Positions 21,758-39,743 of a DNA stretch of 64,000 nt are shown one piece after another. The DNA comes from Novosphingobium sp. (GTDB lineage: Bacteria; Pseudomonadota; Alphaproteobacteria; Sphingomonadales; Sphingomonadaceae), in NCBI GenBank assembly GCA_024236235.1, contig JACKKV010000007.1:6330-70329 (forward strand), written 5' to 3'. Position 1 is the first letter of the stretch. Each line of letters opens with the position of its first letter. The translations under genes were made by a program, and so were the position numbers. The notes beneath the pieces are model-generated. The model ran no database searches, was not told the origin of the DNA, and saw only the letters and a program-made list of their open reading frames with translations.

Positions 21758-21758
21758 T

Positions 21759-22226
21759 ATGAAAAAACTCAAACTTTCCATTGTGATTGTATATTTCATT
21801 GCAGGTTGCAGCTTATCCACGTCTTTTGACCGAGAGTTTCGGGATTTCTATTTGAAACCGGGTGAGGAGCGCGCTGAGGAGTTCGCGGCATATCCTATTG
21901 AAAAACAATATGAAATTTACATGTGGGGCGTTCGTAACTTTCATCCTTCTCCTTTGCATTTGGCGGAGGTGATGGGGAAGGGCGGTATGCCTTCAGCGAT
22001 CTATGTTGCTAATAGGATGGCTGGCACAAGTGATCCTGTGGAACTTAGTAGTGCTATTGTCGTTTTTGAATGGATGCAGCTTCATGGAATTCCTGTATGT
22101 GACAACAAGGAAATTGTCGAGGCAATGGCCCGTGGACTTGTGAAGTCAAAAGGCACTATTCATGAGAAGTCATATCGTAATATTCTATTTAGAACATGTC
22201 CCATACAGGGTATTGGGAAGATATAG
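21759..22226 (+). CDS. Candidate immunity lipoprotein for the RHS toxin tip
   Basis: It starts 1 nt after the RHS stop. Lipobox: MKKLKLSIVIVYFIAGC. AT-rich like the toxin tip. I recognise no family. Confidence 0.55.
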   Translation: MKKLKLSIVIVYFIAGCSLSTSFDREFRDFYLKPGEERAEEFAAYPIEKQYEIYMWGVRNFHPSPLHLAEVMGKGGMPSAIYVANRMAGTSDPVELSSAIVVFEWMQLHGIPVCDNKEIVEAMARGLVKSKGTIHEKSYRNILFRTCPIQGIGKI

Positions 22227-22318
22227 CCCATTTCCCAATCATTATTTTGTTGCCGCTTGTTCCTATTTCGAATGCGCGGTCGTGATCCTAAAAACCGAAA
22301 CTATCGTGGGGTGGGCGC

Positions 22319-23108
22319 GTGAAACATATAGGACAAGCACTGCTGTTGTTCTTCCTGGCCATGGCGGCACCGCTTGCGCCGGCGTTCGCCCAGAGTACCG
22401 TCACCTACACCTATGACGCGCTCGGCCGCCTCGTACGCTCGGAGAACAACGGTACCAGCACTGCCGACAGCACCTACACCCTCGATGCAGCGGGCAACCG
22501 CACCAACGTCACCGTCACCGGCTCGCCGTTCCCGACCTTTTCGATCGACAGCACAGCCGTCACCGAAGGCGGAACCGCGATCCTGACCGTCACCAAGGGC
22601 GGCGCGACGATCGACACGCTCACCGTCAATTACGCGAGCGCCGACGGCACCGCGAGCGCGGGATCGGATTATACCGCAACCAGCACCCAGATGCTGACCT
22701 TCCTCGCCTCCGACAGCAGCAAGACGATCGCCATTCCCACCACTGACGATCTGTTGATCGAAAACACCGAGAACTTCACCGTGACGCTGTCCGGCAACAG
22801 CGCGGGCTCGGCCATCGGTCAGGCCACTGGCACGGTTACGATCAACGACAATGACGCGACCAGCTTCGCCATTTCCGATGCTTCGGTCACCGAGGGCGGA
22901 AACCTCGTCTATACCGTCACCAAGACGGGCAGTGTGGCCGCGAACATCAGCTATGCCACCGCTGATGGCACGGCGACGGCCGGGTCGACCATCTCGACCG
23001 CGCAGGGCTCCGGCACGATCAATGATAACGATGTGCCGCCTGTATCCTTTGCGATATCGGCTGCGCCCACTGTTTCGGAAGGCGGCAACCTCGTTTACAC
23101 GGTCACCT
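22319..23108 (+). pseudogene. N-terminal fragment of a secreted YD-repeat/Calx-beta protein, interrupted by an IS remnant
   Basis: GTG start, signal peptide ALLLFFLAMAAPLAPAFA, YD repeats, then Calx-beta repeats (TADGTASAGSDYTATS...FTVTLSG). The second repeat is internally shortened. The third is cut after NLVYTVT. Confidence 0.75.
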
Positions 23109-23552
23109 GTCCCCCGTCAGCACCAATGGCACAGATTTGAGGTTGTGATTTAAGGAGGATTTGGGCTTCGTTGCAGTGACGAAGGAACGAAGATGAAGCC
23201 CAAATCCTCCAATGCAAAATCGCCGACCAAGGCCCCCGCGGAACGGGTGGTAAAGGACATCCGGCGGCAGACCAGGCGCCACTTCTCGGCCGAGGACAAG
23301 ATCCGCATTGTGCTGGAAGGCCTGCGCGGCGAAGACAGCATCGCCGAGCTGTGCCGCAAGGAAGGCATCGCGCAGAGCCTGTTTTACACCTGGTCGAAGG
23401 AGTTCATGGAGGCCGGCAAGCGCTGGCTGGCTGGTGACACCACCCGTGCCGCAACGACCGTCGAAGTGCAGGATCTACGCCGCGAAGCCCGCGCCCTGAA
23501 GGAATGCGTGGCAGACCTGACGCTGGAGAACCGCCTGCTGAAAAAAAGCATG
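23109..23552 (+). mobile_element. IS3-family insertion sequence remnant (left end plus orfA only)
   Basis: The OrfA-like HTH protein starts at 23193 (RRHFSAEDKIRIVLEGLRGEDSIAELCRKEGIAQSLFYTWSKEF...LENRLLKKSM). It ends just after the A7G slippery run (23541-23548). No orfB and no right end are present. The left boundary is inferred from loss of the Calx-beta reading frame. Confidence 0.75.
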
Positions 23553-23885
23553 AGCCGGGCTTCAACAAGGTTCTGACCGCAACGGACGCGCGCGGGAAGG
23601 TCACCGACTACGCTTACGATCCGGTCACCGGCGATCTGGCCTCTGTCACCGCACCGGCGGCCACGTCCGGCGGTACGCGCCCGCAAACGACCGTCAGCTA
23701 CACCAGCTTCACTGGCGCGGGTGGCATGCCGTCCTTCACCATGCCGACCTCGGTCACCAGCAAGATCGACGCAGCGAACAGCGTGACGACGACAACGGCT
23801 TATAACGCGGCCAACAAATATGTGCCGCAGTCGAGCACGGTGGACCCCACAGGCCTCAACCTGACTTCGACCTTCTCCTCTGCCC
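23553..23885 (+). pseudogene. Internal YD-repeat (RHS) fragment downstream of the IS remnant
   Basis: The frame of the 23504..23980 ORF reads FNKVLTATDARGKVTDYAYDPVTGDLASVT...TTTAYNAANKYVPQSSTVDPTGLNL. Similarity decays after about 23885. Confidence 0.6.
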
Positions 23886-24177
23886 AACTTGCGATTTCCC
23901 GTGTCCGATTCACAAGATATCGGTCGCTGAATTTGCTAAGGTGCGCAGACTCCCGGCGGTCTCGCGATTTGCACTCATGAATGCAGACGTCAAACTCCCG
24001 TTATTTTCCCGTTTGCTCGGGAATTTGGCCAAGAGACCGGCGATCAAAGTGGTCTTCACGCCTCCAGCTTTTTCCTGAATTGTTCGCCCGTTGGCGCTGT
24101 GCATGCAGGAAGTTTGCCCTTGTGCGACAGAAAGCGTTGCACCGCGCGGCGAAGCTGACTAGAGAGCCGCCCCGGAC

Positions 24178-28044: not shown

Positions 28045-28827
28045 TCAGATGGTGGCGATGCCCGTAATCAACCCCAGGGCCAGCCAGTTGCCCAGCATGG
28101 TCCCGGCCTTCGCCAGCGCCGCCGTTTCGTCCATCCGTTCCAGCAGCAGCGCGCAGGCTTCGCCATAGCTGCCGCCAGTGGCCAGATGGTGCAGCGCCAG
28201 CCCCTCATCCTCGTCCACCAGGATGAATGTCGAGCGCCAGCCTTCGCGCCAGACCGTGCAATAATGCGGGGCGGGCAGAGGCCGCAGCACCGCCTGCGCG
28301 AGCGATGGCTCATCTGCGGCCAGCGCATTCCACAATGGCGGCAGGTCGTGCGCAACTTCACGCAGGGCGAGGCCGGGGGCCATGCGCAGGCGCAGATCGT
28401 TCCACTGGCCGTCGTTGAAGCCGGCGGTGGCGGCGGCAAAATCCTGCGCCGTGAACGGGGCGCAGTCCGCCGCGGTAAAGGCACAGGCCATTGCCCATTC
28501 AATCCACGCCAGTTCCGCCACTTCGGGATCGCCGGGAAAGAGCCCGGTCAGCGTTTCGGCAAAGCCACGCCCGGCATCGTCAAGCGACCATCCGTTCGGC
28601 GGGCAGGAGATCAGGTGATGCGCACCGGCGGCATGGAACGGTTCCTGCCCAACCCAGCGCAGCGTGCGCGGGTAGGTTTCGGTCAGCGCGTCCAGCAGGC
28701 TGCTGCGATAATTGTTGCGATAGATCGCCAGGCCTGCCTGTTCGCGATCATTCCATTGCGCCGGCGGCGGCGCCTCCTCGTCAAGCAATGCGGCCATGAA
28801 GGCGCCCTGCATGTCGGCCAGCTTCAT
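28045..28827 (-). CDS. bufC: DUF2063 protein (BufC/HvfC-type RiPP maturation partner)
   Basis: FMAALLDEE...GLAIYRNNYRSSLLDALTETYP signature. ATGA overlap with the upstream DUF692 gene. Confidence 0.75.
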   Translation of the reverse strand: MKLADMQGAFMAALLDEEAPPPAQWNDREQAGLAIYRNNYRSSLLDALTETYPRTLRWVGQEPFHAAGAHHLISCPPNGWSLDDAGRGFAETLTGLFPGDPEVAELAWIEWAMACAFTAADCAPFTAQDFAAATAGFNDGQWNDLRLRMAPGLALREVAHDLPPLWNALAADEPSLAQAVLRPLPAPHYCTVWREGWRSTFILVDEDEGLALHHLATGGSYGEACALLLERMDETAALAKAGTMLGNWLALGLITGIATI

Positions 28828-29657
28828 GCGGCCACCAGTGTGGCGGCCGCGGCCAGCTGGCGCGCGATGTCCAGTTCGCCCAGCAGGCTATCAAGCGGCG
28901 GGATCGCATCGTCACGTTCGATCATCACGGCGACGGGGCCAAGCTGCGTCATGGCGCTCTGGTAAAGCGCCCATACCGCATCGCACACCGCGCGGTCATG
29001 CGTGTCGATGATGATCTCGCCCGGCTGATGCCCGGCAAGGTGAACCTGGCGCACCCGTTCCAGCGGCAATCCGGTCAGATAGTCTTGCGCTGCAAAGCCG
29101 TGATTGCACGCGCTGACATAGATGTTGTTGATGTCCAGCAGCAGGTAGCAGCCGGTCCGCCGCACGACCTCGGCCAGAAATTCCCACTCGCTCATCTCGT
29201 TTTCGGGAAAGATGAGATAGCTAGACGGGTTTTCGAGCAGGATGGGGCGCCTGAGCGCGTCCTGCGCGGCGCAAACATTGGTGCAGACCAGCCCCAGTGC
29301 CTCCTGCGTATAAGGCAGGGGCAGCAGATCGTGGCTGTTGTGTGCGCTGGTGCGGGTCCAGCACAGATGGTCCGATACCCACAGCGGATCGATCCGTTCA
29401 ACCAGCGCGGCCAGCCGCCGCAGATAGGCCTGGTCCACCCCATGCGCCGAGCCGGGCGAGAGTGACACGCCGTGCAGCGCCACCGGGTGATGGCGGCGCA
29501 CCGCCTCCAGCAAGGCCAGCGGCCTGCCGCCGTCGACTATGTAGTTTTCCGAAATCACCTCCACGAAATCGACCGGCACGCCGCCCGCCTCGAATTCGGC
29601 GAAATGGGGGCGGCGCAGACCGAGGCCGAAACCGGAAAAACTGGCAATTTCGTTCAT
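28824..29657 (-). CDS. bufB: DUF692 multinuclear non-heme iron oxidase (MNIO; BufB/HvfB/MbnB-type RiPP maturase)
   Basis: GLGLRRPHF...VDFVEVISENY...HGVSLS...VSDHLCW...LLENPSSY...LLDINNIYVS...HLAGH motifs. Start at MNEIASF (29657). Confidence 0.85.
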   Translation of the reverse strand: MNEIASFSGFGLGLRRPHFAEFEAGGVPVDFVEVISENYIVDGGRPLALLEAVRRHHPVALHGVSLSPGSAHGVDQAYLRRLAALVERIDPLWVSDHLCWTRTSAHNSHDLLPLPYTQEALGLVCTNVCAAQDALRRPILLENPSSYLIFPENEMSEWEFLAEVVRRTGCYLLLDINNIYVSACNHGFAAQDYLTGLPLERVRQVHLAGHQPGEIIIDTHDRAVCDAVWALYQSAMTQLGPVAVMIERDDAIPPLDSLLGELDIARQLAAAATLVAA

Positions 29658-29681
29658 CTGGGCGTTCTCGTGCAACTGGGT

Positions 29682-29725
29682 GTGGCCCGGCCTTCCGGGA
29701 GGGGGGCAGGGGAAAGCCGGGCCAC
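29682..29725 (-). promoter_or_regulatory. Perfect 10-bp GC-rich hairpin between the precursor and maturase genes
   Basis: GTGGCCCGGC (29682-29691) pairs with GCCGGGCCAC (29716-29725) across a 24-nt loop. It lies in the 92-nt gap between the bufA2-like stop and the DUF692 start. Confidence 0.5.
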
Positions 29726-29749
29726 GGGGAGGTGAACGGCGCTGCGGGT

Positions 29750-30031
29750 TTAGCCGAGATCGCCGATCGTGCCGCCCTTGGTCAGGCATTCGCCCGCTTT
29801 CATTGCCTTGAAGCCGTGGCCCTTGCAGGCGTTCATGCCCTTGCAGGCATGTTCGGCGGTGGCGCAATCGGCCGTGCCCTTGCAGCTGTTGACGCCATAG
29901 CAATGCACCGTGTCGTTTGCGCCCACCGCGATGCCGTTGCTGCCGGCCGGGGCATCTGCGGCAAAAGCGGCGGCGGAAAGGGCGAGTGCGGCGGCGGCCG
30001 AAGCGATGGTGGCGGTACGGGTCTTGGTCAT
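29750..30031 (-). CDS. bufA2: Six-Cys bufferin-type precursor peptide (BufA2-like)
   Basis: Sec signal ([10 protein letters not shown]|AD). Core [32 protein letters not shown]...GEC, i.e. C-x5-C-x5-C-x6-C-x5-C-x12-C. GGAGA RBS 6 nt before the ATG at 30031. Confidence 0.7.
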
Positions 30032-30074
30032 CGGGAGTCTCCATATGTAATCGGTGCCAGTGCGGCTATGTGCC

Positions 30075-30101
30075 ATTCGCGCCATTGATGCCGACGGTTA
30101 C
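30075..30101 (-). promoter_or_regulatory. ECF (SigF/ECF16-type) promoter candidate for the bufA2-bufB-bufC operon
   Basis: The minus strand reads GTAACC-N16-CGAAT (plus strand: ATTCG 30075-30079, GGTTAC 30096-30101), 44 nt upstream of the bufA2 start. Confidence 0.6.
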
Positions 30102-30124
30102 AGGCAGGAAAATTTTTTCGCATT

Positions 30125-30151
30125 GTAACCTGTGCATCCCCCGCCGCGAAT
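30125..30151 (+). promoter_or_regulatory. ECF (SigF/ECF16-type) promoter candidate for the bufA1-doxX-sigF-nrsF operon
   Basis: GTAACC (30125-30130), N16, CGAAT (30147-30151), about 40 nt upstream of the bufA1 start. The motif and spacing are identical to the divergent copy. Confidence 0.6.
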
Positions 30152-30191
30152 AGCCTGCCAGCCCTGGACGTTGCCGGGGCGCAGACCGGAG

Positions 30192-30473
30192 ATGAAGATG
30201 AAGACCAGATCGATCGCCGCCCTTGCGGGCGTGGCCATGTCAGGAAGCCTCGCGGTTCAGTCCGCCGTTGCGGCGGACCGCGCGCCGATGGAAAAGTGCT
30301 ATGGCGTCGCCAAGGCCGGCAAGAATGATTGTGCGGCAGGCGCAGGCACCAGCTGCGCGGGTACTTCCACCCGTGATTATCAGGGCAATGCCTGGAAACT
30401 GGTGGCCAAGGGCAGCTGCACCGCGATCAAGACCCCCAAGGGGCCGGGTTCGCTGACCCCGATCCAGCGCTGA
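30192..30473 (+). CDS. bufA1: DUF2282 four-Cys bufferin-type precursor peptide (BufA1-like)
   Basis: Signal peptide, then [51 protein letters not shown]. The second ATG at 30198 has better RBS spacing. Confidence 0.75.
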
Positions 30474-30495
30474 TCGCCAGCAGGGGAGAGCAGCG

Positions 30496-30954
30496 ATGCA
30501 ATCCATTTCTGCCCGCTGGGATCGCGCGGCCGCCTGCCTTGCGGGGCGCCGGGGTGAAGGGCTGGCGCTGCTTCTCACCCGGATCGCGCTGGCTGGCGTG
30601 TTCTGGCGTTCGGGCCAGAGCAAGCTGGTGGAAGACAGCTGGTTCGCGATCAGCCCGTCCACTTACTTCCTGTTCGAGACGGAATATAGCGCGGTCCCCC
30701 TGCCGCCCGCCTTCGCGGCGGTGATGGCGACCATTGCCGAACATGTTTTTCCCATTCTGCTGGTGCTGGGGCTGGGCACGCGCCTGGCCGCGCTGGCACT
30801 GCTGGGCATGACGATGGTGATCCAGATCTTCGTCTATCCCGAAGCGTGGTGGAGCGTGCATCTGCTGTGGGTGGCGATGGCCGCCATCCTGATCTCGCGC
30901 GGGGCGGGCATGTTCTCGCTCGATGCGCTGCTGGGCGCGAGACTTCGCGCGTGA
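30496..30954 (+). CDS. DoxX family membrane protein (BufD-like)
   Basis: LLLTRIALAGVFWRSGQSKL and four hydrophobic helices. Confidence 0.75.
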   Translation: MQSISARWDRAAACLAGRRGEGLALLLTRIALAGVFWRSGQSKLVEDSWFAISPSTYFLFETEYSAVPLPPAFAAVMATIAEHVFPILLVLGLGTRLAALALLGMTMVIQIFVYPEAWWSVHLLWVAMAAILISRGAGMFSLDALLGARLRA

Positions 30955-31481
30955 CAGCGGATGAGGCGGCACTGGCGCGGCTGATGGGCGCGGCCCAGCA
31001 GGGCGACCGGCAGGCCTATGCCGTCTTGCTGGAACAGGCGGGCAGATGGCTGCGCCGGTATTTTGCCCGGCGGGTCGCACCGCAGAACCTTGACGATCTG
31101 GTGCAGGAGGTGCTGCTTTCGCTGCACCGCAAGCGCGCGACCTACGATCCTGCCCGCCCGTTCCTGCCCTGGCTGGCGGCGATTGCCCGCTATCGCTGGG
31201 TCGATCAGCTACGCGGTGAATATCGGGCCGCCACCCAGGAGCTGCAGGACAATGATGCGGTGGACGAAGGCAGCGAGGATGCGGTGCTTGCCCGGATCAG
31301 CCTCGACCGGCTGTTCGCCCGGCTCCCTGCTGCCCAGGCCCGGGCGATCGAGCTGGTGAAGATCGAAGGGCGCAGTATTTGCGAGGCATCGCAACGCTGC
31401 GGGCAGAGCGAGGCGCTCGTCAAGGTGAACATATTTCGCGGCATCCGCAAAATGGCCGCGCTGATCGAAAAGGCACAATAG
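30951..31481 (+). CDS. sigF: ECF RNA polymerase sigma factor (SigF/ECF16-like)
   Basis: Region 2 (DLVQEVLLSLHRKRATYDP...FLPWLAAIARYRWVDQLR) and region 4 (IELVKIEGRSICEASQRCGQSEALVKV). The GTG start overlaps the doxX stop (GTGA). Confidence 0.8.
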   Translation: MTADEAALARLMGAAQQGDRQAYAVLLEQAGRWLRRYFARRVAPQNLDDLVQEVLLSLHRKRATYDPARPFLPWLAAIARYRWVDQLRGEYRAATQELQDNDAVDEGSEDAVLARISLDRLFARLPAAQARAIELVKIEGRSICEASQRCGQSEALVKVNIFRGIRKMAALIEKAQ

Positions 31482-31482
31482 G

Positions 31483-32124
31483 ATGAAGCGGACAACGGAC
31501 GGGCTGATCGCGCAACTGGCGAATGAACTGCAACCGGTGCGCCCGTTGCGCTGGCGGGCCGGCATGGCGCTGGCGCTGGCGGCGTTTGCCATGGCCGCGC
31601 TCGCCGTCGTGGCCTTGCGCGGCCTGAGCGAGGGCGTGGCGCACGGGCATGTTTCGGCCTTCTTCGTGGTCGCCAACGGGCTGCTGCTGCTGCTCGGTCT
31701 GGCCGGGGCGAGCGCGGTGATCGCGATGGCATCCCCTAATGTGGGGGCGCAGCATCAAGGCCCTAAATGGGCGCTGGCGATGGTCATGGTGCTGCCGGTG
31801 GCTGCCGCATTCGCATTGCTTGGCAGCGGATCAGCGGATCATTCGATCGGCGGGCTGCACGCAGTCTACTGCATCGCCCTGTCGCTCGCCACGGCGGCGC
31901 TGGTCGCCGCTGCGCTGGTCGTGTGGCTGCGCCAGGGGGCGCCGGTATCGGCACCTGCGGCGGGCCTTTACACCGGCATTGCCGCAGGTGCGCTGGGCAG
32001 CGTTGCCTATGGCCTGTCCTGCCCGGTCGACACGATTGCACATCTGGGCATCGCGCATGTCGTGCCGGTGGCGCTGGCAGGGGCCATGGGGCGGATCGCG
32101 CTGCCTGCATTCCTGCGCTGGTAA
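31483..32124 (+). CDS. nrsF: DUF1109 (NrsF-type) membrane anti-sigma factor
   Basis: MKRTTDGLIAQLANELQPVRPL N-terminus and six predicted TM helices. It starts 1 nt after the sigma factor stop. Confidence 0.75.
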   Translation: MKRTTDGLIAQLANELQPVRPLRWRAGMALALAAFAMAALAVVALRGLSEGVAHGHVSAFFVVANGLLLLLGLAGASAVIAMASPNVGAQHQGPKWALAMVMVLPVAAAFALLGSGSADHSIGGLHAVYCIALSLATAALVAAALVVWLRQGAPVSAPAAGLYTGIAAGALGSVAYGLSCPVDTIAHLGIAHVVPVALAGAMGRIALPAFLRW

Positions 32125-32140: not shown

Positions 32141-33454
32141 TCAGACCGCCGAACTGAACCGGCGCAGCGAATCCTTGCGATAGACGTCGAATTGCGCGGC
32201 GATGCTGCGTGCATAGGGCAGGCCCGCACCGGTGATGATCACCACATCGTCGGCCATGCGCAGCAGGCCACGGCTGGCAAAGGGGGCGAGACGGGGCAAT
32301 GCCTCCTGCAGCATGGCCGCGCCAACCCGCGCCTGCCCGTTGCACAGCAGGCTTTCGATGATCGCCCCGCGCGTCCGGTCATCCCGGCTGCGGGCGATGC
32401 CGCGTTCGACGGGGTGGCGATCCTGCGACAGCAGCATGCGGTAACGGCCGGCATTCTTTTCCTTCTGCACCAGCAGATCCGGAAAGACGCAGATCGACGA
32501 TGCTCCCAGCCCGATCAGCACCGGTGCGCCGTCATCAGTAAAGCCCTGGAAGTTGCGATGCAGATGGCCTGACAGCGCCGCCTGCGCCAGCGGATCGCCG
32601 GGCAGGGCGAAATGATCGAAACCGACCGGCTGATAGCCTTCATCGCTGAGCAGGCGATAGCCCAGCGCGGCCATCCTGAAGCGTTCTTCCTGATCGGGCA
32701 GTGCGTCCGCTTCGATCTTGCGCTGGCGCGGGATCAGTTGCGGCACATGCGCATAGCCGAACAGGGCGATGCGATCCGCGCCAAGAGCGGCTGACAGCCG
32801 CAGGCTCTGTTCCAGATCGTTCAACGTCTGTCCGGGCAACCCGTACATCAGGTCGAAGTTGAGCGAGCTGATGCCCGCATCGCGCAGCAGGGCAACGCTG
32901 CGCCGGATATCAGCTTCGGGTTGTTCGCGCCCGATGGCGGTCTGCAGATGCGGGGCAAAGGTCTGCACGCCAAGGCTGGCGTGCGTTGCGCCGACCCCGG
33001 CAATGACATCGCGCCAGCTGTGCGTGAGCGTGCGCGGGTCGAGCTCCACCGAAATGACTGGCTCCGCGATCGGAAAGTTGAGCACCAGCGCATCCATCAA
33101 CCGCACGAAATCATGCGGGGCGATGGCATTGGGGCTGCCACCGCCAAAGGCGATGCGGCGCACCGCAATGCCCGGCGGCAGCAGCGCCGCAGTCAGCGCG
33201 ATGTCGCGGTGAAGCGCATCAAGATAGCTGGCGAGCCGTTTCTTGTGATTGGCCGCCGCCGTGTTGCAGCCACAGTACCAGCAGATCTTCTCGCAAAAGG
33301 GGATGTGGACATAAAGCGAGATGTCGCCCTGCACCCGTTGGAGCGCCCGCGTGAAATGGCCTGCATTCACGCCTTCGCCAAATTCGGCGGCAGTGGGATA
33401 GCTGGTGTATCGCGGCACGGGCACAGCCAGCAATTCGGGAAAATAAGGCCACAT
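32141..33454 (-). CDS. hemN: Oxygen-independent coproporphyrinogen III oxidase (radical SAM)
   Basis: RYTSYPTA and HIPFCEKICWYCGCN (CxxxCxxC) motifs. 437 aa. Confidence 0.9.
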   Translation of the reverse strand: MWPYFPELLAVPVPRYTSYPTAAEFGEGVNAGHFTRALQRVQGDISLYVHIPFCEKICWYCGCNTAAANHKKRLASYLDALHRDIALTAALLPPGIAVRRIAFGGGSPNAIAPHDFVRLMDALVLNFPIAEPVISVELDPRTLTHSWRDVIAGVGATHASLGVQTFAPHLQTAIGREQPEADIRRSVALLRDAGISSLNFDLMYGLPGQTLNDLEQSLRLSAALGADRIALFGYAHVPQLIPRQRKIEADALPDQEERFRMAALGYRLLSDEGYQPVGFDHFALPGDPLAQAALSGHLHRNFQGFTDDGAPVLIGLGASSICVFPDLLVQKEKNAGRYRMLLSQDRHPVERGIARSRDDRTRGAIIESLLCNGQARVGAAMLQEALPRLAPFASRGLLRMADDVVIITGAGLPYARSIAAQFDVYRKDSLRRFSSAV

Positions 33455-33486
33455 GCAGCACTATTGACCATGGCTGGCCGCCGCGA

Positions 33487-33735
33487 TCATTGCCTTGGAT
33501 CAATCTTTCCCGATTGCCGCTTGCGTTCCGCTGAAGAATGGCACGCCTTGCCGCAGCACAGACGTTCGTTTTCGCCCGGCAGCAGCGGTGCGCCCAGCGG
33601 GATTTCGACGCTGGCCCCTTGCGGTCCGCCGCACAGGCTGACCACAATCGCGTCGCGTGCGGGCAGCAGCGCAGGGTTCACCATCGCCGGAATGAAGGCG
33701 ATGATGGCAAGGCCGGGCGATCCGGTCCGGCTCAC
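33487..33735 (-). CDS. Small Cys-rich hypothetical membrane protein, translationally coupled to ccoS
   Basis: The GTG start overlaps the ccoS stop (GTGA). One hydrophobic segment (LAIIAFIPAMVNPALL), then SLCGG...LCCGKACH. Third-position GC is high, as in neighbouring genes. Confidence 0.4.
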   Translation of the reverse strand: MSRTGSPGLAIIAFIPAMVNPALLPARDAIVVSLCGGPQGASVEIPLGAPLLPGENERLCCGKACHSSAERKRQSGKIDPRQ

Positions 33736-33881
33736 GCCTCGTCCTCCTCGTCAATCAGGATGCGCTGTGCCGCGCCGTCCAGATCGTCGAACTGGCCGGT
33801 CCTGAGCGACCAGAAGAAGCCGCCGAGGCCCGCCAGCCCCAGCAGCAGGGCAATCGGGATCAGGAATGCGAGGCCATTCAT
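33732..33881 (-). CDS. ccoS: cbb3 oxidase maturation protein CcoS/FixS
   Basis: Hand translation gives MNGLAFLIPIALLLGLAGLGGFFWSLRTGQFDDLDGAAQRILIDEEDEA (49 aa). Too short for the ORF track. It starts 8 nt after the ccoI stop. Confidence 0.85.
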   Translation of the reverse strand: MNGLAFLIPIALLLGLAGLGGFFWSLRTGQFDDLDGAAQRILIDEEDEA

Positions 33882-33888
33882 CGCGCGA

Positions 33889-36039
33889 TCACCGTGCCGC
33901 CCGCGCCAGCCGCAACGAATTGCCGACCACCACCAGCGAACTGGTCGACATGGCGATGGCGGCGATCATCGGGGTGACATAGCCGGCGATCGCCAGCGGC
34001 ACCGCGCAGATATTGTATCCCACGGCCAGCGCGAAGTTCTGTCTGACCACGCGCATGGTGGCGCGCGCGGCGTTGACCGCACGGGGCAGGGCAATCAGCG
34101 AATCCTGAACGAACACGAGGTCGGATGCCTGCAAGCCCACATCGCTGGCCGAGCCCGGCGCCATGGAGGCATCGGCCTTGGCCATTGCCGGTCCGTCATT
34201 CAGCCCGTCACCCACCATCAGCACGCGGTGGCCTGCGGCCTGCAGTGCGGCGATTGCCGCCTGCTTGCGGGCCGGGTCCGCTTCGCCCAGACCGTCCAGC
34301 CCAAGCTCCTGCGCCACCCGTTCCACTGCGTCCTGCCGGTCGCCTGACAGGATCGAGGCGCTGATGCCAAGCCGGGCCAGCCGCTGCAGGGCCTCCTTCG
34401 CGTCGGGTCGCAACCGGTCGGAACAGGGGATAACCCAGGTCGGTTCGCCTTCCAGAAACAGCGTCACGGCCATGCCGCCCGCGCTGTCCGGGCGGCGCAG
34501 CGCAACCTTGCGCCCCTGCCAGCAGGCGAAGACGCCTTCGCCCGGCCGTTCTTCCACCAGCGACAGTTCGGCGGCGCGATGCCCCTTCGCGGCAAGGGCC
34601 GCCGAGAGCGCCTGCGAGATCGGGTGCTTGCTGTGCGAGGCGAGGGCGAGAGCGACCCCGGCGGCGGCTGGCGGCAGGCTGGCAATTACCGCCGGGTCCG
34701 GGACCGGACGGCCCATGGTCAAGGTGCCGGTCTTGTCCAGCAGGGCGCGGTCGATCCTGGCCAGCCGTTCCAGTGCGGAACCGTCCTTGACCATGATCCC
34801 GGCGCGCATCATCGCCGCGCTGGCCACCACCTGGGCCACGGGCACGGCAAGGCCGAGCGCGCAGGGGCAGGTAATGATGAGCACGGCGATGGCGATGACC
34901 AGCGACTGGTACCAGCCCGCCCCGGCGATCATCCAGCCCGCGAAGGTCAGCGCGGCAAGTGTGTGCACGGCAGGGGCGTAAAGCCGTGCCGCGCGGTCGG
35001 CGATGCGGACATATTTCGAACGGTCCTGCGCCGCCGCTTCCATCAGCCGGGCGATTTCGGCCAGCGTCGTGTCCGCGCCGATCGCCAGCACCCGTACATC
35101 GACGGGGGCATCGAGATTGAGCGTTCCGGCCAGCACCTTTGTCCCTTCGCCAGCGGCGGCTGGTGCACTCTCCCCGGTGAGCAGCGATTGGTCAAACCGG
35201 CTTGTCCCGCTGACGATCACGCCGTCTGCGGCAAGCCGTTCCCCGGCGGCGACCCGCATCACCATGCCTGCCGTCAGCTCATCCGCCTTGCGCCACGAAA
35301 GGGCTCCGTCCGCATCTATCACCGTAGCGCCCTGCGCTGCCTGGCTGAGCAGCGCATCCACCCCGGTGCGCGCCTTGTCGCGCATCATCGCGTCCAGCGC
35401 GCGGCCTGCCAGCAGGAAGGCGAGCAGCATCAGCGCGCCATCGAACCAGGCCTCCGCACCGCCGGCCAGCGTTTCGTGGAAGCTGAGTGCGGTGGCGAGA
35501 ATGACGCCGATGGAAATCGGGACATCCATGTTGGTCCGCCCGCGCCGCAACGCCGCCCATGCGGAACGGAAAAAGGGCTGACCCGCAAAAATGATCGCCG
35601 GGATCGCGATGGCGGCGGAAATCCAGTGAAACAGGTTGCGCGTGCTGCCTTCAGCGCCGGACCAGACGCTGACGGACAACAGCATCACATTCATGCCCGC
35701 GAAGGCCGCGACGGCGAGCGGGGCCAGCAGCGGTTTGACCTGCGATTCAGAACGGGCGAAGGCGCCCTTGCGCGGCTGCGCTTCAAAACCGATACGGGCC
35801 AGTTCCTCTACCAGATCGCGCGCCTTCAACCCGGCGTCATGATGCACGGTCACTTGCCGCGCAGACAGGTTTACCCGCGCATCGGCAATGCCCGGCACCC
35901 CGGCCAGACCGCGTTCGATCTTGCTGATGCACCCGGCGCAATGCATGCCCGGCACTGCCAGCACGGTTTCCTGCCAGTGTCCCCGATCGGAGCCGGAGGA
36001 TGGCTGTGCGATCACGGCAGCGGAACCTCGTGCCGCCAC
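33889..36039 (-). CDS. ccoI: Copper-translocating P-type ATPase CcoI/FixI
   Basis: GMHCAGC metal-binding motif, CPCALGLA, DKTGTLT, GDGLNDGPA. Confidence 0.9.
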   Translation of the reverse strand: MAARGSAAVIAQPSSGSDRGHWQETVLAVPGMHCAGCISKIERGLAGVPGIADARVNLSARQVTVHHDAGLKARDLVEELARIGFEAQPRKGAFARSESQVKPLLAPLAVAAFAGMNVMLLSVSVWSGAEGSTRNLFHWISAAIAIPAIIFAGQPFFRSAWAALRRGRTNMDVPISIGVILATALSFHETLAGGAEAWFDGALMLLAFLLAGRALDAMMRDKARTGVDALLSQAAQGATVIDADGALSWRKADELTAGMVMRVAAGERLAADGVIVSGTSRFDQSLLTGESAPAAAGEGTKVLAGTLNLDAPVDVRVLAIGADTTLAEIARLMEAAAQDRSKYVRIADRAARLYAPAVHTLAALTFAGWMIAGAGWYQSLVIAIAVLIITCPCALGLAVPVAQVVASAAMMRAGIMVKDGSALERLARIDRALLDKTGTLTMGRPVPDPAVIASLPPAAAGVALALASHSKHPISQALSAALAAKGHRAAELSLVEERPGEGVFACWQGRKVALRRPDSAGGMAVTLFLEGEPTWVIPCSDRLRPDAKEALQRLARLGISASILSGDRQDAVERVAQELGLDGLGEADPARKQAAIAALQAAGHRVLMVGDGLNDGPAMAKADASMAPGSASDVGLQASDLVFVQDSLIALPRAVNAARATMRVVRQNFALAVGYNICAVPLAIAGYVTPMIAAIAMSTSSLVVVGNSLRLARAAR

Positions 36040-36461
36040 TGCCTGCCTGCATCGCTGACAGAAATGCGCAGTTGCCAGCGCCCGGCGGGCAATTTCTCGG
36101 CAGAGACGAACCGCCCCGCCCTGTCAGCGCGAAAGCTCAGCGTCCGGTCAGGCAGGCGACCAAGCGGGTGACGGGCGATGGCGGACACCTCGGCACCGGC
36201 GGGAGCACCGCTCAGCCCGATTTCGACATGGCGATCCTCGCGCCAGTTCACCCGGGCATCCCAGCCCAGCGCAGATTCCGCCCGTGCCTCGTCCAGCCAG
36301 CGATTGTAATGCTGGCTCGCGACATAGGAATTCTCGACCACCACGCCGCCAAAGGTCGACAGGGCGAGCCGCGCCATCAGGAAATTGACGCCCGCGACAA
36401 TCGCGAAGAACGTGATCAGGATCGCGGCCATGTGGCGACCGGTGAAGCGGCCTTGCATCAT
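36012..36461 (-). CDS. ccoH: FixH/CcoH family protein
   Basis: An N-terminal TM helix plus a FixH-like periplasmic domain. It sits between ccoG and ccoI. Confidence 0.8.
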   Translation of the reverse strand: MMQGRFTGRHMAAILITFFAIVAGVNFLMARLALSTFGGVVVENSYVASQHYNRWLDEARAESALGWDARVNWREDRHVEIGLSGAPAGAEVSAIARHPLGRLPDRTLSFRADRAGRFVSAEKLPAGRWQLRISVSDAGRQWRHEVPLP

Positions 36462-37918
36462 TGTGCCTCCGGCGCTTCGAAGCGCGTTTCGCTGCTGTCG
36501 CTCTCGCCCTTTTCGTCGAGCGAGCGCAGATTGAAAGTGACATGGCCGCTGGCCGTGCCGCGCGGAGCGATCACATAGGCGCGCAAATTTTCGACCGCAT
36601 CGGCAGCGATGGTGCGGCGGATCGTGCTGGCGGCATTCTGATGCGGCATGTCATCGGTCCACATTCTTGCGCCCGGAATACCCGCGATGGCGATTTCCAT
36701 CTGGCGCGGACGACTCTCCATGTTGCGCAGCTTGACAGTGTAGCCGTTGCGGACCGATCCGTCACTCATCAGCATGAAGGGCGGGTTGCGGTCCTGCGCG
36801 ACGGAAATATCGGTGCGGCTGCGCGTGCCCAGCGCAAACAGCAGGGCCAGACCGATGCCCGCCCAGATCGCGAAATAGACCATGGTGCGCGGGTGGCGCA
36901 GCGTCTGCCAGACGGGAACCGGGGGCTTGCCTGCCGCTTCTGCCTTGCAATCTTCCAGCGTGGCATAGTCGATCAGCCCGCGCGGGCGGCCGATGTCCTT
37001 CATCACCCGGTCGCAGGCGTCAATGCACAGGGCGCAGGTGATGCAGCCGATCTGCGTTCCTTCGCGGATGTCGATCCCGGTGGGGCACACGGCCACGCAT
37101 TGGCCGCAATCGATGCAATCGCCGAACTTGTCCGGTTCCTTTTCCGCCTTCTTGACGCTGCCGCGCGGTTCGCCGCGCCAGTCCTTGTAAGTCACGATCA
37201 GCGATTTTTCGTCCAGCATCGCGGTCTGGATGCGCGGCCATGGGCACATGTAGATGCAGACCTGTTCGCGCATGAAACCGCCCAGCCAGAAGGTGGTGAA
37301 GGTCAGCACCGCGACGGTGGCATAGGCGACGCCCGCCGCATCACCTGCGAAGAAATCGCGCAACAGGGTGGGCGCGTCAGCGAAATAGAGAATCCATGCC
37401 CCGCCGGTCAGGAAGCTGATGACGAGATAGATCGACCATTTCAGCAGGCGGCGTGTGATCTTGGCCGGTCCCCATGGTGCCTTGTGCAGGCGGAAGCGGG
37501 CATTGCGGTCACCATCAATGAAGCGGTCGATATGCTGGAACAGGTCCGTCCACACCGTCTGCGGGCAGGCATAGCCGCACCAGGCGCGGCCGACCACGCT
37601 GGTCAGCAGGAACAGCCCGATCCCGGCCATGATGAGCAGGCCCGCCACGAAATAGAATTCATGCGGCCAGATTTCGATGCCGAACATGTAGAAACGGCGA
37701 TGCGCCAGATCGATCAGCACCGCCTGGTCCGGCGCATAGGGTCCGCGATCCCAGCGCAGCCATGGCGTGACGTAATAGACCGCCAGCGTGACGACCATGA
37801 CGAACCATTTGAACCGGCGGAACGGGCCGTCGATCCGCCGGTTGAAGACCGGTTCGCGCTTCGCGTACAGCACCGCCTGCGGCGCCTCGGGCGGCTGGAT
37901 CGGTTCAGGGCTGTTCAT
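36458..37918 (-). CDS. ccoG: cbb3 oxidase accessory protein CcoG/FixG (4Fe-4S ferredoxin-type)
   Basis: CIDCGQCVAVCP and CITCALCIDACD clusters. Start at MNSPEPIQ (37918). Confidence 0.9.
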   Translation of the reverse strand: MNSPEPIQPPEAPQAVLYAKREPVFNRRIDGPFRRFKWFVMVVTLAVYYVTPWLRWDRGPYAPDQAVLIDLAHRRFYMFGIEIWPHEFYFVAGLLIMAGIGLFLLTSVVGRAWCGYACPQTVWTDLFQHIDRFIDGDRNARFRLHKAPWGPAKITRRLLKWSIYLVISFLTGGAWILYFADAPTLLRDFFAGDAAGVAYATVAVLTFTTFWLGGFMREQVCIYMCPWPRIQTAMLDEKSLIVTYKDWRGEPRGSVKKAEKEPDKFGDCIDCGQCVAVCPTGIDIREGTQIGCITCALCIDACDRVMKDIGRPRGLIDYATLEDCKAEAAGKPPVPVWQTLRHPRTMVYFAIWAGIGLALLFALGTRSRTDISVAQDRNPPFMLMSDGSVRNGYTVKLRNMESRPRQMEIAIAGIPGARMWTDDMPHQNAASTIRRTIAADAVENLRAYVIAPRGTASGHVTFNLRSLDEKGESDSSETRFEAPEAQ

Positions 37919-38825
37919 TGACTTCAGCTGCCGGTTGAGCGGCAGCCTCCACGAAGTCTTCGCCTCCCCCGAGCGAGTGAACATAAGCAGCCAGCATCTT
38001 GATCGTCCCGGCATCAAGCTTTTGGCCCCAGGCGGGCATCACGCCGAAGCGCGAATTGGTAATCGTCTGGGTGATGTCGGCGCGGCTGCCGCCATAGAGC
38101 CAGATCGCATCGGTCAGATCGGGTGCGCCGAATGCACGATTGCCCTTGCCGTCCGGGCCGTGGCAGCTGGCGCATTGTTCCGCGAAGATCGTAGACCCGC
38201 GCTGTGCCGACGGGCCGGTCTGTTCCTGGCCCGAAATGCTGCGCACATGGCTGACCAGATACTGGATCTGCGTCGAATCGAGAATCCCGTCGCGTCCGAA
38301 AGCGGGCATCTGGCTGAAACGGGTCTGATCGTCGCCCGGCTGGCGAATTCCGTGAATCAGCGTGGTTTCGATGGATTTCAGATCGCCACCCCACAGCCAG
38401 TCATCGTCATTGAGGTTGGGAAAGCCTTTGGACCCGGCTGCGCCAGCGCCGTGGCACTGGACACAATTGACCTTGAACGCGGCTCGCCCGCCGGCCACGG
38501 CGGTGCGCATCAGCTCAGCATCCCGGGGAAGCTCTTCGACCGGCCTGGCGGCGAGCGCGGCCAGGATCGGAGCCTTGCGGTCTTCTTCCTTCTTCATTTC
38601 GGCGGCCAGTTGGCCGCGGCTGGTCCAGCCCCAGATGCCTTCGGTGCCCTTGTCCAGCAGCGGGATCGCCGGATAGACGACCACATAGCCGATCGCGAAG
38701 GCGATGCAGGCATAGAAGGTCCACAGCCACCAGCGCGGCAGCGGATTGTTCAGTTCTTCGATACCGTCCCATTCATGGCCGACGGTTTCGACCCCGGTTT
38801 CACTGTCGATGCGCTTATCGGCCAT
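37905..38825 (-). CDS. ccoP: cbb3-type cytochrome c oxidase subunit III (diheme)
   Basis: HEWDGIEELNNPLPRWW and two CxxCH motifs (CVQCH, CASCH). Start at MADKRID (38825). Confidence 0.9.
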   Translation of the reverse strand: MADKRIDSETGVETVGHEWDGIEELNNPLPRWWLWTFYACIAFAIGYVVVYPAIPLLDKGTEGIWGWTSRGQLAAEMKKEEDRKAPILAALAARPVEELPRDAELMRTAVAGGRAAFKVNCVQCHGAGAAGSKGFPNLNDDDWLWGGDLKSIETTLIHGIRQPGDDQTRFSQMPAFGRDGILDSTQIQYLVSHVRSISGQEQTGPSAQRGSTIFAEQCASCHGPDGKGNRAFGAPDLTDAIWLYGGSRADITQTITNSRFGVMPAWGQKLDAGTIKMLAAYVHSLGGGEDFVEAAAQPAAEVNEQP

Positions 38826-39731: not shown

Positions 39732-39743
39732 GGCTCTGCCCCC

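What the first reader, a model, noticed from the sequence alone, without database searches (positions are those of the whole stretch)
28045..32124. Composite bufferin-type RiPP metallophore locus: two precursor classes but one MNIO/DUF2063 maturase pair
On the minus strand, a six-Cys secreted precursor (BufA2-like, C-x5-C-x5-C-x6-C-x5-C-x12-C) is followed by a DUF692 MNIO oxidase and a DUF2063 partner. Divergently on the plus strand, a four-Cys DUF2282 precursor (BufA1-like, [24 protein letters not shown]) is followed directly by DoxX, an ECF sigma factor and a DUF1109 anti-sigma factor.

As I recall the Caulobacter paradigm, each precursor class has its own bufB and bufC. BufA1 is normally followed by bufB-bufC-doxX, next to sigF-nrsF. 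Here the BufA1-type operon has no maturase genes of its own, and the only MNIO/DUF2063 pair sits behind the other precursor class.

That leaves two possibilities. One maturase pair may service two structurally different Cys-rich precursors. Alternatively, bufA1 may be an orphan left by deletion of its own maturase genes. I do not know of either architecture being characterised.
Basis: partly seen in the sequence, partly recalled or inferred. Interest (0 to 1): 0.75.

Follow-up and report, generated by a model that had tools for sequence, protein, structure and literature searches.

The report
Two bufferin precursors, one maturase pair
This is a real copper-stress peptide (bufferin) gene cluster in which two different precursor peptides sit back to back under matching stress promoters with only one modifying-enzyme pair between them; the layout is standard in sphingomonad bacteria, so the enzyme pair probably serves both peptides, which nobody has tested.

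Summary
The minus strand carries bufA2 (six Cys), bufB (MNIO) and bufC (DUF2063). The plus strand carries bufA1 (DUF2282, four Cys), doxX, an ECF sigma factor and nrsF. The 64-kb window holds no second MNIO/DUF2063 pair.

New evidence:
- **Promoters.** The 160-bp intergenic region holds the only two perfect Caulobacter sigmaF motifs (GTAACC-N16-CGAA) in the window. They lie back to back, one facing each operon.
- **Distribution.** Among 80 species carrying the closest BufB relatives, 35 share exactly this layout. Another 16 share a variant with two precursor classes and one maturase pair.
- **Lineage.** The maturase belongs to the BufB2 lineage.
- **Loss of bufA2.** In 19 Erythrobacter-type species bufA2 is absent. 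The same bufB-bufC pair survives opposite bufA1-doxX-sig-nrsF, still behind a sigmaF motif.
- **Selection.** bufA1 is intact in all 71 copies that lack their own maturase, with four invariant Cys and dN/dS about 0.25.

Verdict: bufA1 is not a decaying orphan. Its own maturase genes were probably lost by deletion, and the remaining B2-type pair most likely matures both peptides (about 0.6). A second pair elsewhere in the genome could not be checked. The literature already suggests multi-substrate or trans-acting MNIOs. I rate this a new variant of a known kind, of moderate interest.

The parts
28045..28827 (-). bufC: partner protein of the MNIO (PME1 type), with an N-terminal DUF2063 domain. 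Its start overlaps the bufB stop by 4 nt.
   Evidence: PF09836 scores 64.4 bits over residues 6-91. The identical 260-aa protein is called on five public contigs. Orthologues lie directly after bufB in 78 loci. The C-terminal RRE-like domain was not tested, and there is no sequence hit in the PDB.
28824..29657 (-). bufB: multinuclear non-haem iron oxidase (MNIO/DUF692) of the BufB2 lineage.
   Evidence: NF050167 MNIO_BufB scores 367 bits against a cutoff of 310; PF05114 scores 353 bits. It groups with the BufB copies that lie next to bufA2, and apart from those next to bufA1, in genomes that have both (59-63% against 42-49% identity; the split has 100% bootstrap support). It carries the ERD-D motif, the Asp after the catalytic base that is typical of Cys-Lys/BufB2-type MNIOs (PMC13097082).
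29750..30031 (-). bufA2: six-Cys (Cys-Lys type) bufferin precursor with a Sec-type signal peptide ([28 protein letters not shown]...).
   Evidence: NF050166 scores 103.5 bits against a cutoff of 60. An alignment of 61 orthologues has consensus VHCYG...CKG..DC.T....CKG.N.CKG.GFK...A..C. The signal peptide was judged by inspection only.
30076..30101 (-). SigmaF-type ECF promoter motif GTAACC-N16-CGAA. It faces bufA2-bufB-bufC and ends 44 nt upstream of the bufA2 start.
   Evidence: This is a perfect match to the Caulobacter sigmaF-binding sequence (PMC3511200). Only two matches occur in 64 kb, against 0.05 expected. A motif at the same place occurs in 34 of 35 same-layout loci.
30125..30150 (+). 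SigmaF-type ECF promoter motif GTAACC-N16-CGAA. It faces bufA1-doxX-sig-nrsF and ends 41 nt upstream of the bufA1 start.
   Evidence: The motif is conserved upstream of bufA1 in 35 of 35 class I loci and 18 of 19 class II loci.
30192..30473 (+). bufA1: four-Cys DUF2282 bufferin precursor with a Sec-type signal peptide. An alternative start at 30198 is used by the public gene call (91 aa).
   Evidence: PF10048 scores 88 bits. The core [24 protein letters not shown]...[11 protein letters not shown] and its four Cys are invariant in all 76 BufA1 sequences aligned from the loci. dN/dS is about 0.25 for copies without their own bufB.
30496..30954 (+). doxX (bufD-like): membrane protein, 22 nt after bufA1.
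   Evidence: PF07681 scores 65 bits. It always follows bufA1 in the related loci. It is dispensable for the modification in Caulobacter (PMC11626156).
30951..31481 (+). ECF sigma factor of the SigF type. Its GTG start overlaps the doxX stop.
   Evidence: PF04542 and PF08281 match; TIGR02937 scores 61.8 bits. A 176-aa public gene call exists, and the start was checked.
31483..32124 (+). nrsF (DUF1109): membrane anti-sigma factor, starting 1 nt after the sigma gene.
   Evidence: PF06532 scores 112.6 bits. Its Cys at 130 and 180 match the functionally important C131 and C181 of Caulobacter NrsF (PMC3511200). It falls below the NCBIfam NrsF equivalog cutoff (33.6 against 300).

Best explanation
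The locus is a self-contained bufferin module controlled by a sigmaF/NrsF pair. Bufferins are copper-chelating ribosomal peptides; the class has recently also been called captophorins.

**Proposed mechanism**
1. Metal stress relieves NrsF inhibition of the ECF sigma factor.
2. The sigma factor fires two back-to-back promoters in the 160-bp intergenic region. One drives bufA2-bufB-bufC leftwards. The other drives bufA1-doxX-sig-nrsF rightwards, which makes the system autoregulated.
3. The single BufB (MNIO) and BufC (DUF2063 partner) pair, of the B2 lineage, converts central Cys residues to 5-thiooxazoles in the cytoplasm. It acts on BufA2 encoded in cis and, by inference, on BufA1 encoded in the divergent operon.
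4. Both peptides are exported by Sec and their signal peptides are removed. The outer Cys pair forms a disulphide, and the mature peptides buffer periplasmic copper.

**Proposed history**
A two-operon locus with two maturase pairs lost bufB1-bufC1, leaving bufA1-doxX dependent on the neighbouring pair. In Erythrobacter-type genomes bufA2 was later lost as well.

**Shown here:** gene identities, the promoter motifs and their conservation, the distribution of the layout, the lineage of BufB, and purifying selection on bufA1.

**Inferred:** sigma-dependent co-induction, the chemistry (taken from Caulobacter) and, above all, that BufB/BufC modifies BufA1.
For: - **Family assignments.** All components pass curated cutoffs.
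- **Promoters.** The window holds two perfect GTAACC-N16-CGAA motifs, both in the intergenic region, one per strand, 41-44 nt from each start codon; 0.05 are expected by chance. This is the experimentally defined sigmaF site of Caulobacter, where it drives both buf operons. The pair of motifs is conserved in 34 of 35 same-layout loci and 17 of 19 class II loci, against a background of 0.07 per kb per strand.
- **Distribution.** The same seven-gene layout occurs in 35 of 80 species and two-class/one-pair variants in 16 more. The flanking genes are not conserved, so the module is the unit under selection.
- **Loss of bufA2.** 19 species have no bufA2 ORF or remnant in a 183-464 bp spacer. They still keep an orthologous bufB-bufC (64-69% identity), usually behind a sigmaF motif, opposite bufA1-doxX-sig-nrsF. 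These loci nest among class I loci: their nearest neighbours are class I or II in 100% of bootstraps, and the clade joining them to the window excludes other classes in 88%. A maturase pair retained with BufA1 as the only adjacent precursor implies that BufA1 is its substrate.
- **Selection on bufA1.** Copies without their own bufB have four invariant Cys and a near-invariant core. dN/dS is about 0.25 (0.12 in class II), similar to bufB at 0.20.
- **Plausibility of cross-recognition.** BufA1 and BufA2 are distant homologues. They show 35% identity over 43 residues with a shared CYGV strand, and the BufA2 HMM hits BufA1 at E = 6e-4. Caulobacter BufA2 is predicted to fold like BufA1, and recognition involves the core peptide rather than the signal peptide. 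One of the four central BufA2 Cys sits in an A-D-C-A context that resembles the N-D-C-A site of BufA1.
Against: - No experiment shows that a B2-type pair modifies a DUF2282 precursor.
- Published mutagenesis and cell-free assays indicate family-specific active-site determinants around the modified Cys (PMC13097082). The window's BufB keeps the Cys-Lys-type Asp.
- The rest of the genome could not be scanned, so a second bufB1-bufC1 pair may exist. One same-layout genome (L028, Novosphingobium aquiterrae) does carry a second bufA1-bufB about 10 kb away.
- In class II genomes a bufA2 gene could lie outside the +-10 kb examined.
- dS is near saturation, so the dN/dS values are rough.
- The tree is neighbour-joining only, and monophyly of class II is weakly supported at 28%.
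Confidence: 0.6

Rival explanations
1. BufA1 is matured in trans by a dedicated BufB1/BufC1 pair encoded elsewhere in the genome. On this reading the neighbouring BufB/BufC serves only BufA2, and the adjacency reflects shared regulation alone.
For: - Many genomes hold several MNIO/DUF2063 pairs; Legionella has up to seven MNIO and six DUF2063 genes (PMC12452194).
- L028 has a second bufA1-bufB about 10 kb from a same-layout locus.
- Four related genomes keep both pairs.
- Substrate-specificity determinants differ between MNIO subfamilies.
Against: - There is no second pair in the 64-kb window.
- Only 1 of 35 class I loci and 0 of 19 class II loci show one within +-10 kb.
- This reading does not explain why 19 species keep a B2-lineage bufB-bufC, usually behind a sigmaF motif, with no bufA2 beside it.
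Confidence: 0.2
2. BufA1 works unmodified. It would act as a small periplasmic Cys-containing protein functionally coupled to DoxX, independent of any MNIO. The bufA1-doxX pair would then be a separate sigmaF-regulon member that happens to lie beside buf2.
For: - bufA1 and doxX stay tightly linked (22-nt gap) in every layout.
- The literature reports sizeable numbers of stand-alone precursor genes, 21 genomes with DUF2282 but no MNIO, and explicitly allows that such precursors 'are not modified'.
Against: - In Caulobacter both modified Cys and BufB1/BufC1 are required for BufA1 function, and DoxX is dispensable.
- The sequence around CysII and CysIII is as conserved in maturase-less copies as in copies with their own BufB.
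- Class II loci keep bufB-bufC with no other local substrate.
Confidence: 0.12
3. bufA1 is a non-functional orphan left by deletion of its maturase genes and is on its way to being lost.
For: Comparison with two-pair loci (L063, L067, L069, L083) suggests that bufB1-bufC1 were deleted from between bufA1 and doxX.
Against: - All 71 maturase-less copies have intact reading frames with four invariant Cys.
- dN/dS is about 0.25.
- The sigmaF motif upstream is conserved.
- The gene is retained across at least eight genera.
Confidence: 0.03

Closest known systems
Caulobacter vibrioides buf1 operon (bufA1-bufB1-bufC1-bufD1/doxX next to sigF-nrsF; PMC11626156, PMC3511200)
   Same: - It has a DUF2282 four-Cys precursor with a Sec signal peptide.
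- doxX lies downstream, with an adjacent ECF sigmaF and a DUF1109 NrsF that has two conserved Cys.
- The promoter is GTAACC-N16-CGAA.
   Different: - Here no bufB or bufC lies between bufA1 and doxX.
- The sigma and nrsF genes are fused into the same operon as bufA1-doxX.
- The only maturase pair is on the opposite strand and belongs to the other (B2) lineage.
Caulobacter vibrioides buf2 operon (bufA2-bufB2-bufC2; PMC11626156)
   Same: - It has a six-Cys Cys-Lys-type precursor followed by an MNIO and a DUF2063 partner, with no doxX in the operon.
- It has a sigmaF-type promoter.
- BufB carries the Asp after the catalytic base.
   Different: - In Caulobacter buf2 is a separate locus, far from buf1 and sigF.
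- Here it is divergently fused to the bufA1 operon through a 160-bp dual-promoter region, and it is the only maturase source nearby.
Adjacent two-pair loci (Asticcacaulis GCF_000175215.2 in Table S4 of PMC12452194; L063, L067, L069, L083 here)
   Same: buf1 and buf2 genes lie side by side; in Asticcacaulis and L063 bufA1 and bufA2 are divergent neighbours, in L067, L069 and L083 the two operons are adjacent in other orientations. L063, L067 and L083 also have a sigma factor gene in the locus.
   Different: These loci keep bufB1-bufC1 between bufA1 and doxX. The window's layout looks like this form after loss of that pair and relocation of sig-nrsF.
Stand-alone and tandem bufferin precursor genes described in PMC12452194
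   Same: Precursor genes occur without an adjacent MNIO in the same operon, and the authors propose multi-substrate MNIOs or maturation from another locus.
   Different: - That description is generic.
- In the text read it does not report pairing of the two precursor classes with one maturase pair, shared divergent sigmaF promoters, or the clade-wide conservation and later loss of bufA2 found here.
- The paper also states that sigma/NrsF genes occur in Buf1 but not Buf2 clusters, whereas class III loci here have sig-nrsF-bufA2-bufB-bufC in one operon.

Membership tests
Bufferin / captophorin gene cluster (MNIO plus PME1 partner plus Cys-rich secreted precursor) | An MNIO (DUF692) enzyme of the bufferin-maturase type | tested here: met
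   NF050167 MNIO_BufB equivalog scores 367.1 bits against a cutoff of 310; PF05114 scores 353 bits.
Bufferin / captophorin gene cluster (MNIO plus PME1 partner plus Cys-rich secreted precursor) | A partner protein with an N-terminal DUF2063 domain, encoded directly after the MNIO | tested here: met
   PF09836 scores 64.4 bits against a cutoff of 27.2 over residues 6-91. The gene overlaps the bufB stop by 4 nt.
Bufferin / captophorin gene cluster (MNIO plus PME1 partner plus Cys-rich secreted precursor) | A C-terminal RRE-like peptide-binding domain in the partner protein | not tested
   No sequence hit in the PDB. No structure prediction was run.
Bufferin / captophorin gene cluster (MNIO plus PME1 partner plus Cys-rich secreted precursor) | Precursor of the Buf2 (six-Cys, Cys-Lys) family | tested here: met
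   NF050166 scores 103.5 bits against a cutoff of 60. Six Cys are present with the family spacing.
Bufferin / captophorin gene cluster (MNIO plus PME1 partner plus Cys-rich secreted precursor) | Precursor of the Buf1 (DUF2282, four-Cys) family | tested here: met
   PF10048 scores 88.2 bits against a cutoff of 22.4. Four Cys are conserved.
Bufferin / captophorin gene cluster (MNIO plus PME1 partner plus Cys-rich secreted precursor) | [quoted passage not shown] | tested here: inconclusive
   Both N-termini show a basic n-region, a hydrophobic Ala-rich h-region and an A-x-A site (AVA/AD and AFA/AD) by inspection of the translations. No signal-peptide predictor was available.
Bufferin / captophorin gene cluster (MNIO plus PME1 partner plus Cys-rich secreted precursor) | Central Cys converted to 5-thiooxazoles, and copper binding by the mature peptide | not testable with these tools
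   This needs LC-MS, UV and NMR. It is known only for Caulobacter Buf1 and Buf2 and related systems.
SigF/NrsF regulon (Caulobacter type) | The sigmaF-binding promoter GTAACC-N16-CGAA upstream of the operons | tested here: met
   Two perfect matches, one per operon, against 0.05 expected in the window. They are conserved in relatives. The motif definition comes from PMC3511200. Actual sigma-dependent transcription is not testable here.
SigF/NrsF regulon (Caulobacter type) | A DUF1109 anti-sigma factor with two conserved Cys, co-transcribed with the ECF sigma factor | tested here: met
   PF06532 scores 112.6 bits. Cys130 and Cys180 correspond to C131 and C181 in Caulobacter. There is a 1-nt gap after the sigma gene. 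It falls below the stricter NCBIfam equivalog cutoff (33.6 against 300).
Canonical buf1 operon (bufA1-bufB1-bufC1-doxX) | Its own bufB and bufC between bufA1 and doxX | tested here: not met
   bufA1 ends at 30473 and doxX starts at 30496. No MNIO or DUF2063 gene lies on the plus strand or elsewhere in the window.
BufB2 lineage of bufferin maturases | Groups with the BufB copies adjacent to bufA2, not bufA1, in genomes that hold both; has Asp after the catalytic Asp | tested here: met
   59-63% identity to A2-adjacent copies against 42-49% to A1-adjacent copies. The split has 100% bootstrap support. The ERDD motif is present.

The most novel reading that the evidence does not exclude
A BufB2/BufC2-lineage maturase pair is naturally able to process both bufferin classes and has taken over maturation of the DUF2282 precursor after its cognate BufB1/BufC1 was lost. 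In Erythrobacter-type genomes the enzyme's original six-Cys substrate has since disappeared, which would complete a switch of substrate class. The graded series of layouts (two pairs; one pair with two classes; one pair with BufA1 only) would then be a ready-made natural experiment for mapping what sets substrate choice in MNIO/RRE systems.
Probability: 0.55. Interest if true: 0.55.

Novelty: new variant of a known kind. Interest (0 to 1): 0.4.

Why it matters
Bufferins, recently also called captophorins, are among the largest groups of MNIO-modified ribosomal peptides. The published model pairs each precursor class with its own maturase. Recent mutagenesis and cell-free assays also point to family-specific active-site determinants.

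This locus and its relatives suggest that one maturase pair can serve two classes, and can even outlive its original substrate. If that holds:
- Counting clusters by adjacent precursor would misassign substrates.
- Sphingomonad and Erythrobacter enzymes would be good starting points for engineering broad-specificity thiooxazole installation.
- The dual sigmaF promoter gives a simple handle for co-induction experiments.

None of this changes the known chemistry or the known role in copper stress. The significance is for specialists.

Tried and rejected
- **Second maturase pair in the genome.** Only the 64-kb window and +-10 kb around relatives could be searched.
- **Per-genome table of PMC12452194**. 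The stored copy is truncated and holds no same-layout sphingomonad genome. It also undercounts unannotated precursors: Caulobacter is listed with 0 Buf1 and 0 Buf2. I abandoned it.
- **Remnants of bufA2 in class II spacers**. Only noise-level hits turned up, so loss is inferred from phylogeny and taxonomy rather than from a pseudogene.
- **Specificity residue after the catalytic Asp**. It is Asp in the window and in most relatives, and Glu in 6 of 19 class II enzymes. B1-type copies are variable. This fits the literature but does not decide between explanations.
- **dN/dS** (the script timed out and was rewritten). dS is about 1.2, near saturation, so I used the values only as a qualitative sign of constraint.
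- **PDB sequence search with BufC**. No hit, so the RRE domain remains unverified.
- **Conservation of flanking genes**. The PQQ dehydrogenase, hemN and fixI neighbours are not conserved next to the module. I therefore dropped a functional link to cbb3 oxidase assembly.
- **Literature searches for a characterised cross-class case or sphingomonad data**. None was found in the held library.

Full report
**1. What is in the sequence**

On the minus strand:
- bufA2, 29750-30031. It scores 103.5 bits on the NCBIfam BufA2 equivalog against a cutoff of 60, and has six Cys with the quoted spacing.
- bufB, 28824-29657. It scores 367 bits on MNIO_BufB against a cutoff of 310.
- bufC, 28045-28827. Its N-terminal DUF2063 domain scores 64 bits.

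On the plus strand:
- bufA1, 30192-30473 (DUF2282, 88 bits, four Cys).
- doxX, 30496-30954.
- An ECF sigma factor, 30951-31481.
- nrsF/DUF1109, 31483-32124 (112.6 bits).

The genes are packed like operons. bufB and bufC overlap by 4 nt. bufA1 and doxX are 22 nt apart. The doxX stop and the sigma start share GTGA. The sigma and nrsF genes are 1 nt apart. A tblastn search of the seven proteins against the whole window finds no second copy of any of them. An identical locus is present on public MAG contigs such as GCA_024236245.1, with gene calls of 260, 277, 93, 91, 152, 176 and 213 aa. The rest of the window is ordinary chromosome: phosphoglucomutase, PhaC, ccoN, glycerol kinase, PtsP and an acyl-CoA ligase.

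**2. The paradigm**

buf1 is bufA1-bufB1-bufC1-doxX next to sigF-nrsF. buf2 is a separate bufA2-bufB2-bufC2 operon. Both are sigmaF-controlled and copper-induced. BufB1 and BufC1 are necessary and sufficient to turn the two central Cys of BufA1 into 5-thiooxazoles. In Buf2 the four central Cys are modified. DoxX is dispensable for the modification (PMC11626156). Cross-talk between the two systems was not tested there, because the deletion series was made in a strain that lacks buf2.

**3. Shared regulation**

The 160-bp spacer between bufA2 and bufA1 contains GTAACCGTCGGCATCAATGGCGCGAA on the minus strand (30076-30101). It also contains GTAACCTGTGCATCCCCCGCCGCGAA on the plus strand (30125-30150). 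These are perfect matches to GTAACC-N16-CGAA, the experimentally defined Caulobacter sigmaF-binding sequence (PMC3511200). They are the only two matches in 64 kb, where 0.05 are expected by chance. Each faces one operon and ends 41-44 nt from its start codon.

NrsF has Cys at positions 130 and 180, matching the two functionally important Cys of Caulobacter NrsF, C131 and C181. The locus therefore reads as a divergent pair of operons driven by its own autoregulated sigma/anti-sigma pair. This is an inference from motifs, not a transcription measurement.

**4. Comparative genomics**

A scan of one genome per GTDB species with BufB returned the 80 closest loci, at 59-74% identity, mostly from Sphingomonadales. 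I mapped all seven proteins onto them and found five layouts.

- **Class I**, identical to the window: 35 species. Genera include Sphingobium, Novosphingobium, Qipengyuania, Croceicoccus, Pontixanthobacter, Sphingomonas and Sphingosinicella, plus a few gammaproteobacterial records.
- **Class II**, nrsF-sig-doxX-bufA1 opposite bufB-bufC with no bufA2: 19 species, of Erythrobacter or Porphyrobacter type.
- **Class III**, doxX-bufA1 opposite sig-nrsF-bufA2-bufB-bufC: 13 species. The NrsF identity was confirmed at 243 bits.
- **Class V**, bufA1-doxX-hydrolase-bufA2-bufB-bufC on one strand: 3 species, Dyella and Luteibacter.
- **Two complete maturase pairs side by side**: L063, L067, L069 and L083. 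Asticcacaulis has the same form in Table S4 of PMC12452194.

So 51 of 80 species have two precursor classes and one local maturase pair. The window's layout is the norm for its clade. The genes flanking the module are not conserved, which means the module itself is the conserved unit.

**5. Lineage of the maturase**

In genomes with two pairs, the copy next to bufA2 is 59-63% identical to the window's BufB. The copy next to bufA1 is 42-49% identical. In a neighbour-joining tree the A1-adjacent copies split from all others in 100% of bootstraps. The window's enzyme also has Asp directly after the catalytic Asp (ERDD). Gadgil et al. associate that residue with Cys-Lys (BufA2-type) substrates (PMC13097082). 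The surviving pair is therefore B2/C2, and the missing one is B1/C1. Comparing L063 with class III loci suggests a simple deletion of bufB1-bufC1 from between bufA1 and doxX.

**6. Is bufA1 a relic?**

It is not. All 71 bufA1 copies that lack their own bufB have intact frames. They share a nearly invariant core, EKCYGV.KAG.NDC.AG.GTSCAGT...[11 protein letters not shown], and four invariant Cys. They cannot be told apart from the five copies that do have their own maturase. Pairwise dN/dS is about 0.25 (0.12 within class II), compared with 0.20 for bufB and 0.38 for bufA2. dS is near saturation, so I read these values only as qualitative evidence of constraint. A sigmaF-type motif lies upstream of bufA1 in 35 of 35 class I loci and 18 of 19 class II loci. 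It lies upstream of bufA2, or of bufB in class II, in 34 of 35 and 18 of 19. The background rate is 0.07 per kb per strand.

**7. The most informative observation**

Class II loci have only 183-464 bp between bufA1 and bufB. That spacer holds no Cys-rich secreted ORF and no detectable bufA2 remnant. Yet bufB and bufC are intact and usually still follow a sigmaF motif.

In the BufB tree these loci sit among class I loci. Their nearest neighbours are class I or II in 100% of bootstraps. The clade joining them to the window excludes classes III to V in 88%. Monophyly of class II itself is weak, at 28%. Taxonomy agrees: other Erythrobacteraceae (Qipengyuania, Croceicoccus, Pontixanthobacter) and the Sphingomonadaceae are class I.

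The simplest reading is that bufA2 was lost secondarily, while its maturase pair was kept opposite bufA1. A maturase pair has no function without a substrate, and the only precursor nearby is BufA1. This is indirect but reasonably strong support for the view that this B2-lineage pair modifies BufA1, in class II and by extension in the window.

**8. Plausibility of cross-class recognition**

- BufA1 and BufA2 are distant homologues. They show 35% identity over 43 residues, starting at a shared CYGV motif at the first Cys. The BufA2 HMM hits BufA1 at E = 6e-4.
- The Caulobacter authors note that the BufA2 model is very similar in fold to BufA1. They also report that recognition involves the core peptide, not the signal peptide.
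- One of the four central Cys of BufA2 lies in an A-D-C-A context here, close to the N-D-C-A site of BufA1.
- Against this, experiments on the related FonBC enzyme show that residues flanking the Cys matter and that subfamilies differ.

**9. What remains open**

I could not scan the whole genome for a second bufB1-bufC1 pair. One class I genome (L028) does have another bufA1-bufB about 10 kb away. A trans-acting dedicated pair therefore remains a live rival, at about 0.2. An unmodified role for BufA1 alongside DoxX is less likely, at about 0.12, given the Caulobacter genetics and class II. A decaying orphan is effectively excluded.

**10. Relation to the literature and novelty**

PMC12452194 already reports that sizeable fractions of Buf1 and Buf2 precursors are not next to an MNIO gene. 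[quoted passage not shown] The general idea is therefore published.

I did not find the following in the held literature:
- the pairing of the two precursor classes with a single B2-lineage maturase pair;
- the dual back-to-back sigmaF promoters;
- the clade-wide conservation of the layout;
- the later loss of bufA2.

The statement that sigma/NrsF genes occur in Buf1 but not Buf2 clusters is also contradicted by class III loci. Figures and full supplementary tables could not be read, so the layout may appear there unremarked.

I classify the finding as a new variant of a known kind. It is ordinary in content and common in its clade, and its testable implication is of specialist interest.

Noticed in passing
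window 32141-41399 (minus strand): Immediately beside nrsF lies a hemN-like radical SAM gene (32141-33454). It is followed by the cbb3 oxidase assembly and structural genes: fixI/ccoI copper ATPase (33889-36039), fixS, fixH, fixG, ccoP and so on to ccoN (39744-41399). The adjacency to a copper-handling module is found only in this species and not in the 80 related loci, so it is probably coincidental.
   Followed up: partly
window 19904-21757 and about 20000-24000: RHS/YD-repeat protein genes coincide with a dip in GC content (0.56-0.59 against about 0.63-0.66 around them). This may be horizontally acquired toxin-type cargo.
   Followed up: no
L073:8925-9590 compared with window 31483-32124: The window's NrsF scores 112 bits on Pfam NrsF and only 33.6 on the NCBIfam equivalog (cutoff 300). 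The NrsF of class III loci scores 243 bits, and their sigma factor is only 35-44% identical to the window's. Class I and class III regulators may be different paralogues that nonetheless use the same GTAACC-N16-CGAA promoter.
   Followed up: partly
L051, L055, L075 (Dyella, Luteibacter): A third arrangement places bufA1-doxX, a secreted alpha/beta hydrolase and bufA2-bufB-bufC on one strand. It has no sigma/nrsF genes and no sigmaF motif, which implies different regulation of the same two-class, one-pair gene set.
   Followed up: partly
L026 (labelled Prosthecochloris vibrioformis MAG) and L025 (Congregibacter MAG): These contigs carry class I loci whose proteins are closest to Sphingomonas and Erythrobacteraceae copies. 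They are probably mis-binned contigs rather than real transfers.
   Followed up: no
L052:10825-11587: bufC is split into two overlapping tblastn segments. This is either a frameshift or an assembly error in this class II MAG.
   Followed up: no
L028:20216-20829 (Novosphingobium aquiterrae): A second bufA1 followed by a B1-type bufB lies about 10 kb downstream of a class I locus. At least one genome therefore keeps both a maturase-less bufA1 and a canonical buf1 operon.
   Followed up: partly
Table S4 of PMC12452194 (supplementary file 3): The per-genome table lists Caulobacter (GCF_000006905.1) with two MNIO and two DUF2063 genes but zero Buf1 and zero Buf2 precursors. Published co-occurrence counts therefore miss unannotated small precursor genes.
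   Followed up: no
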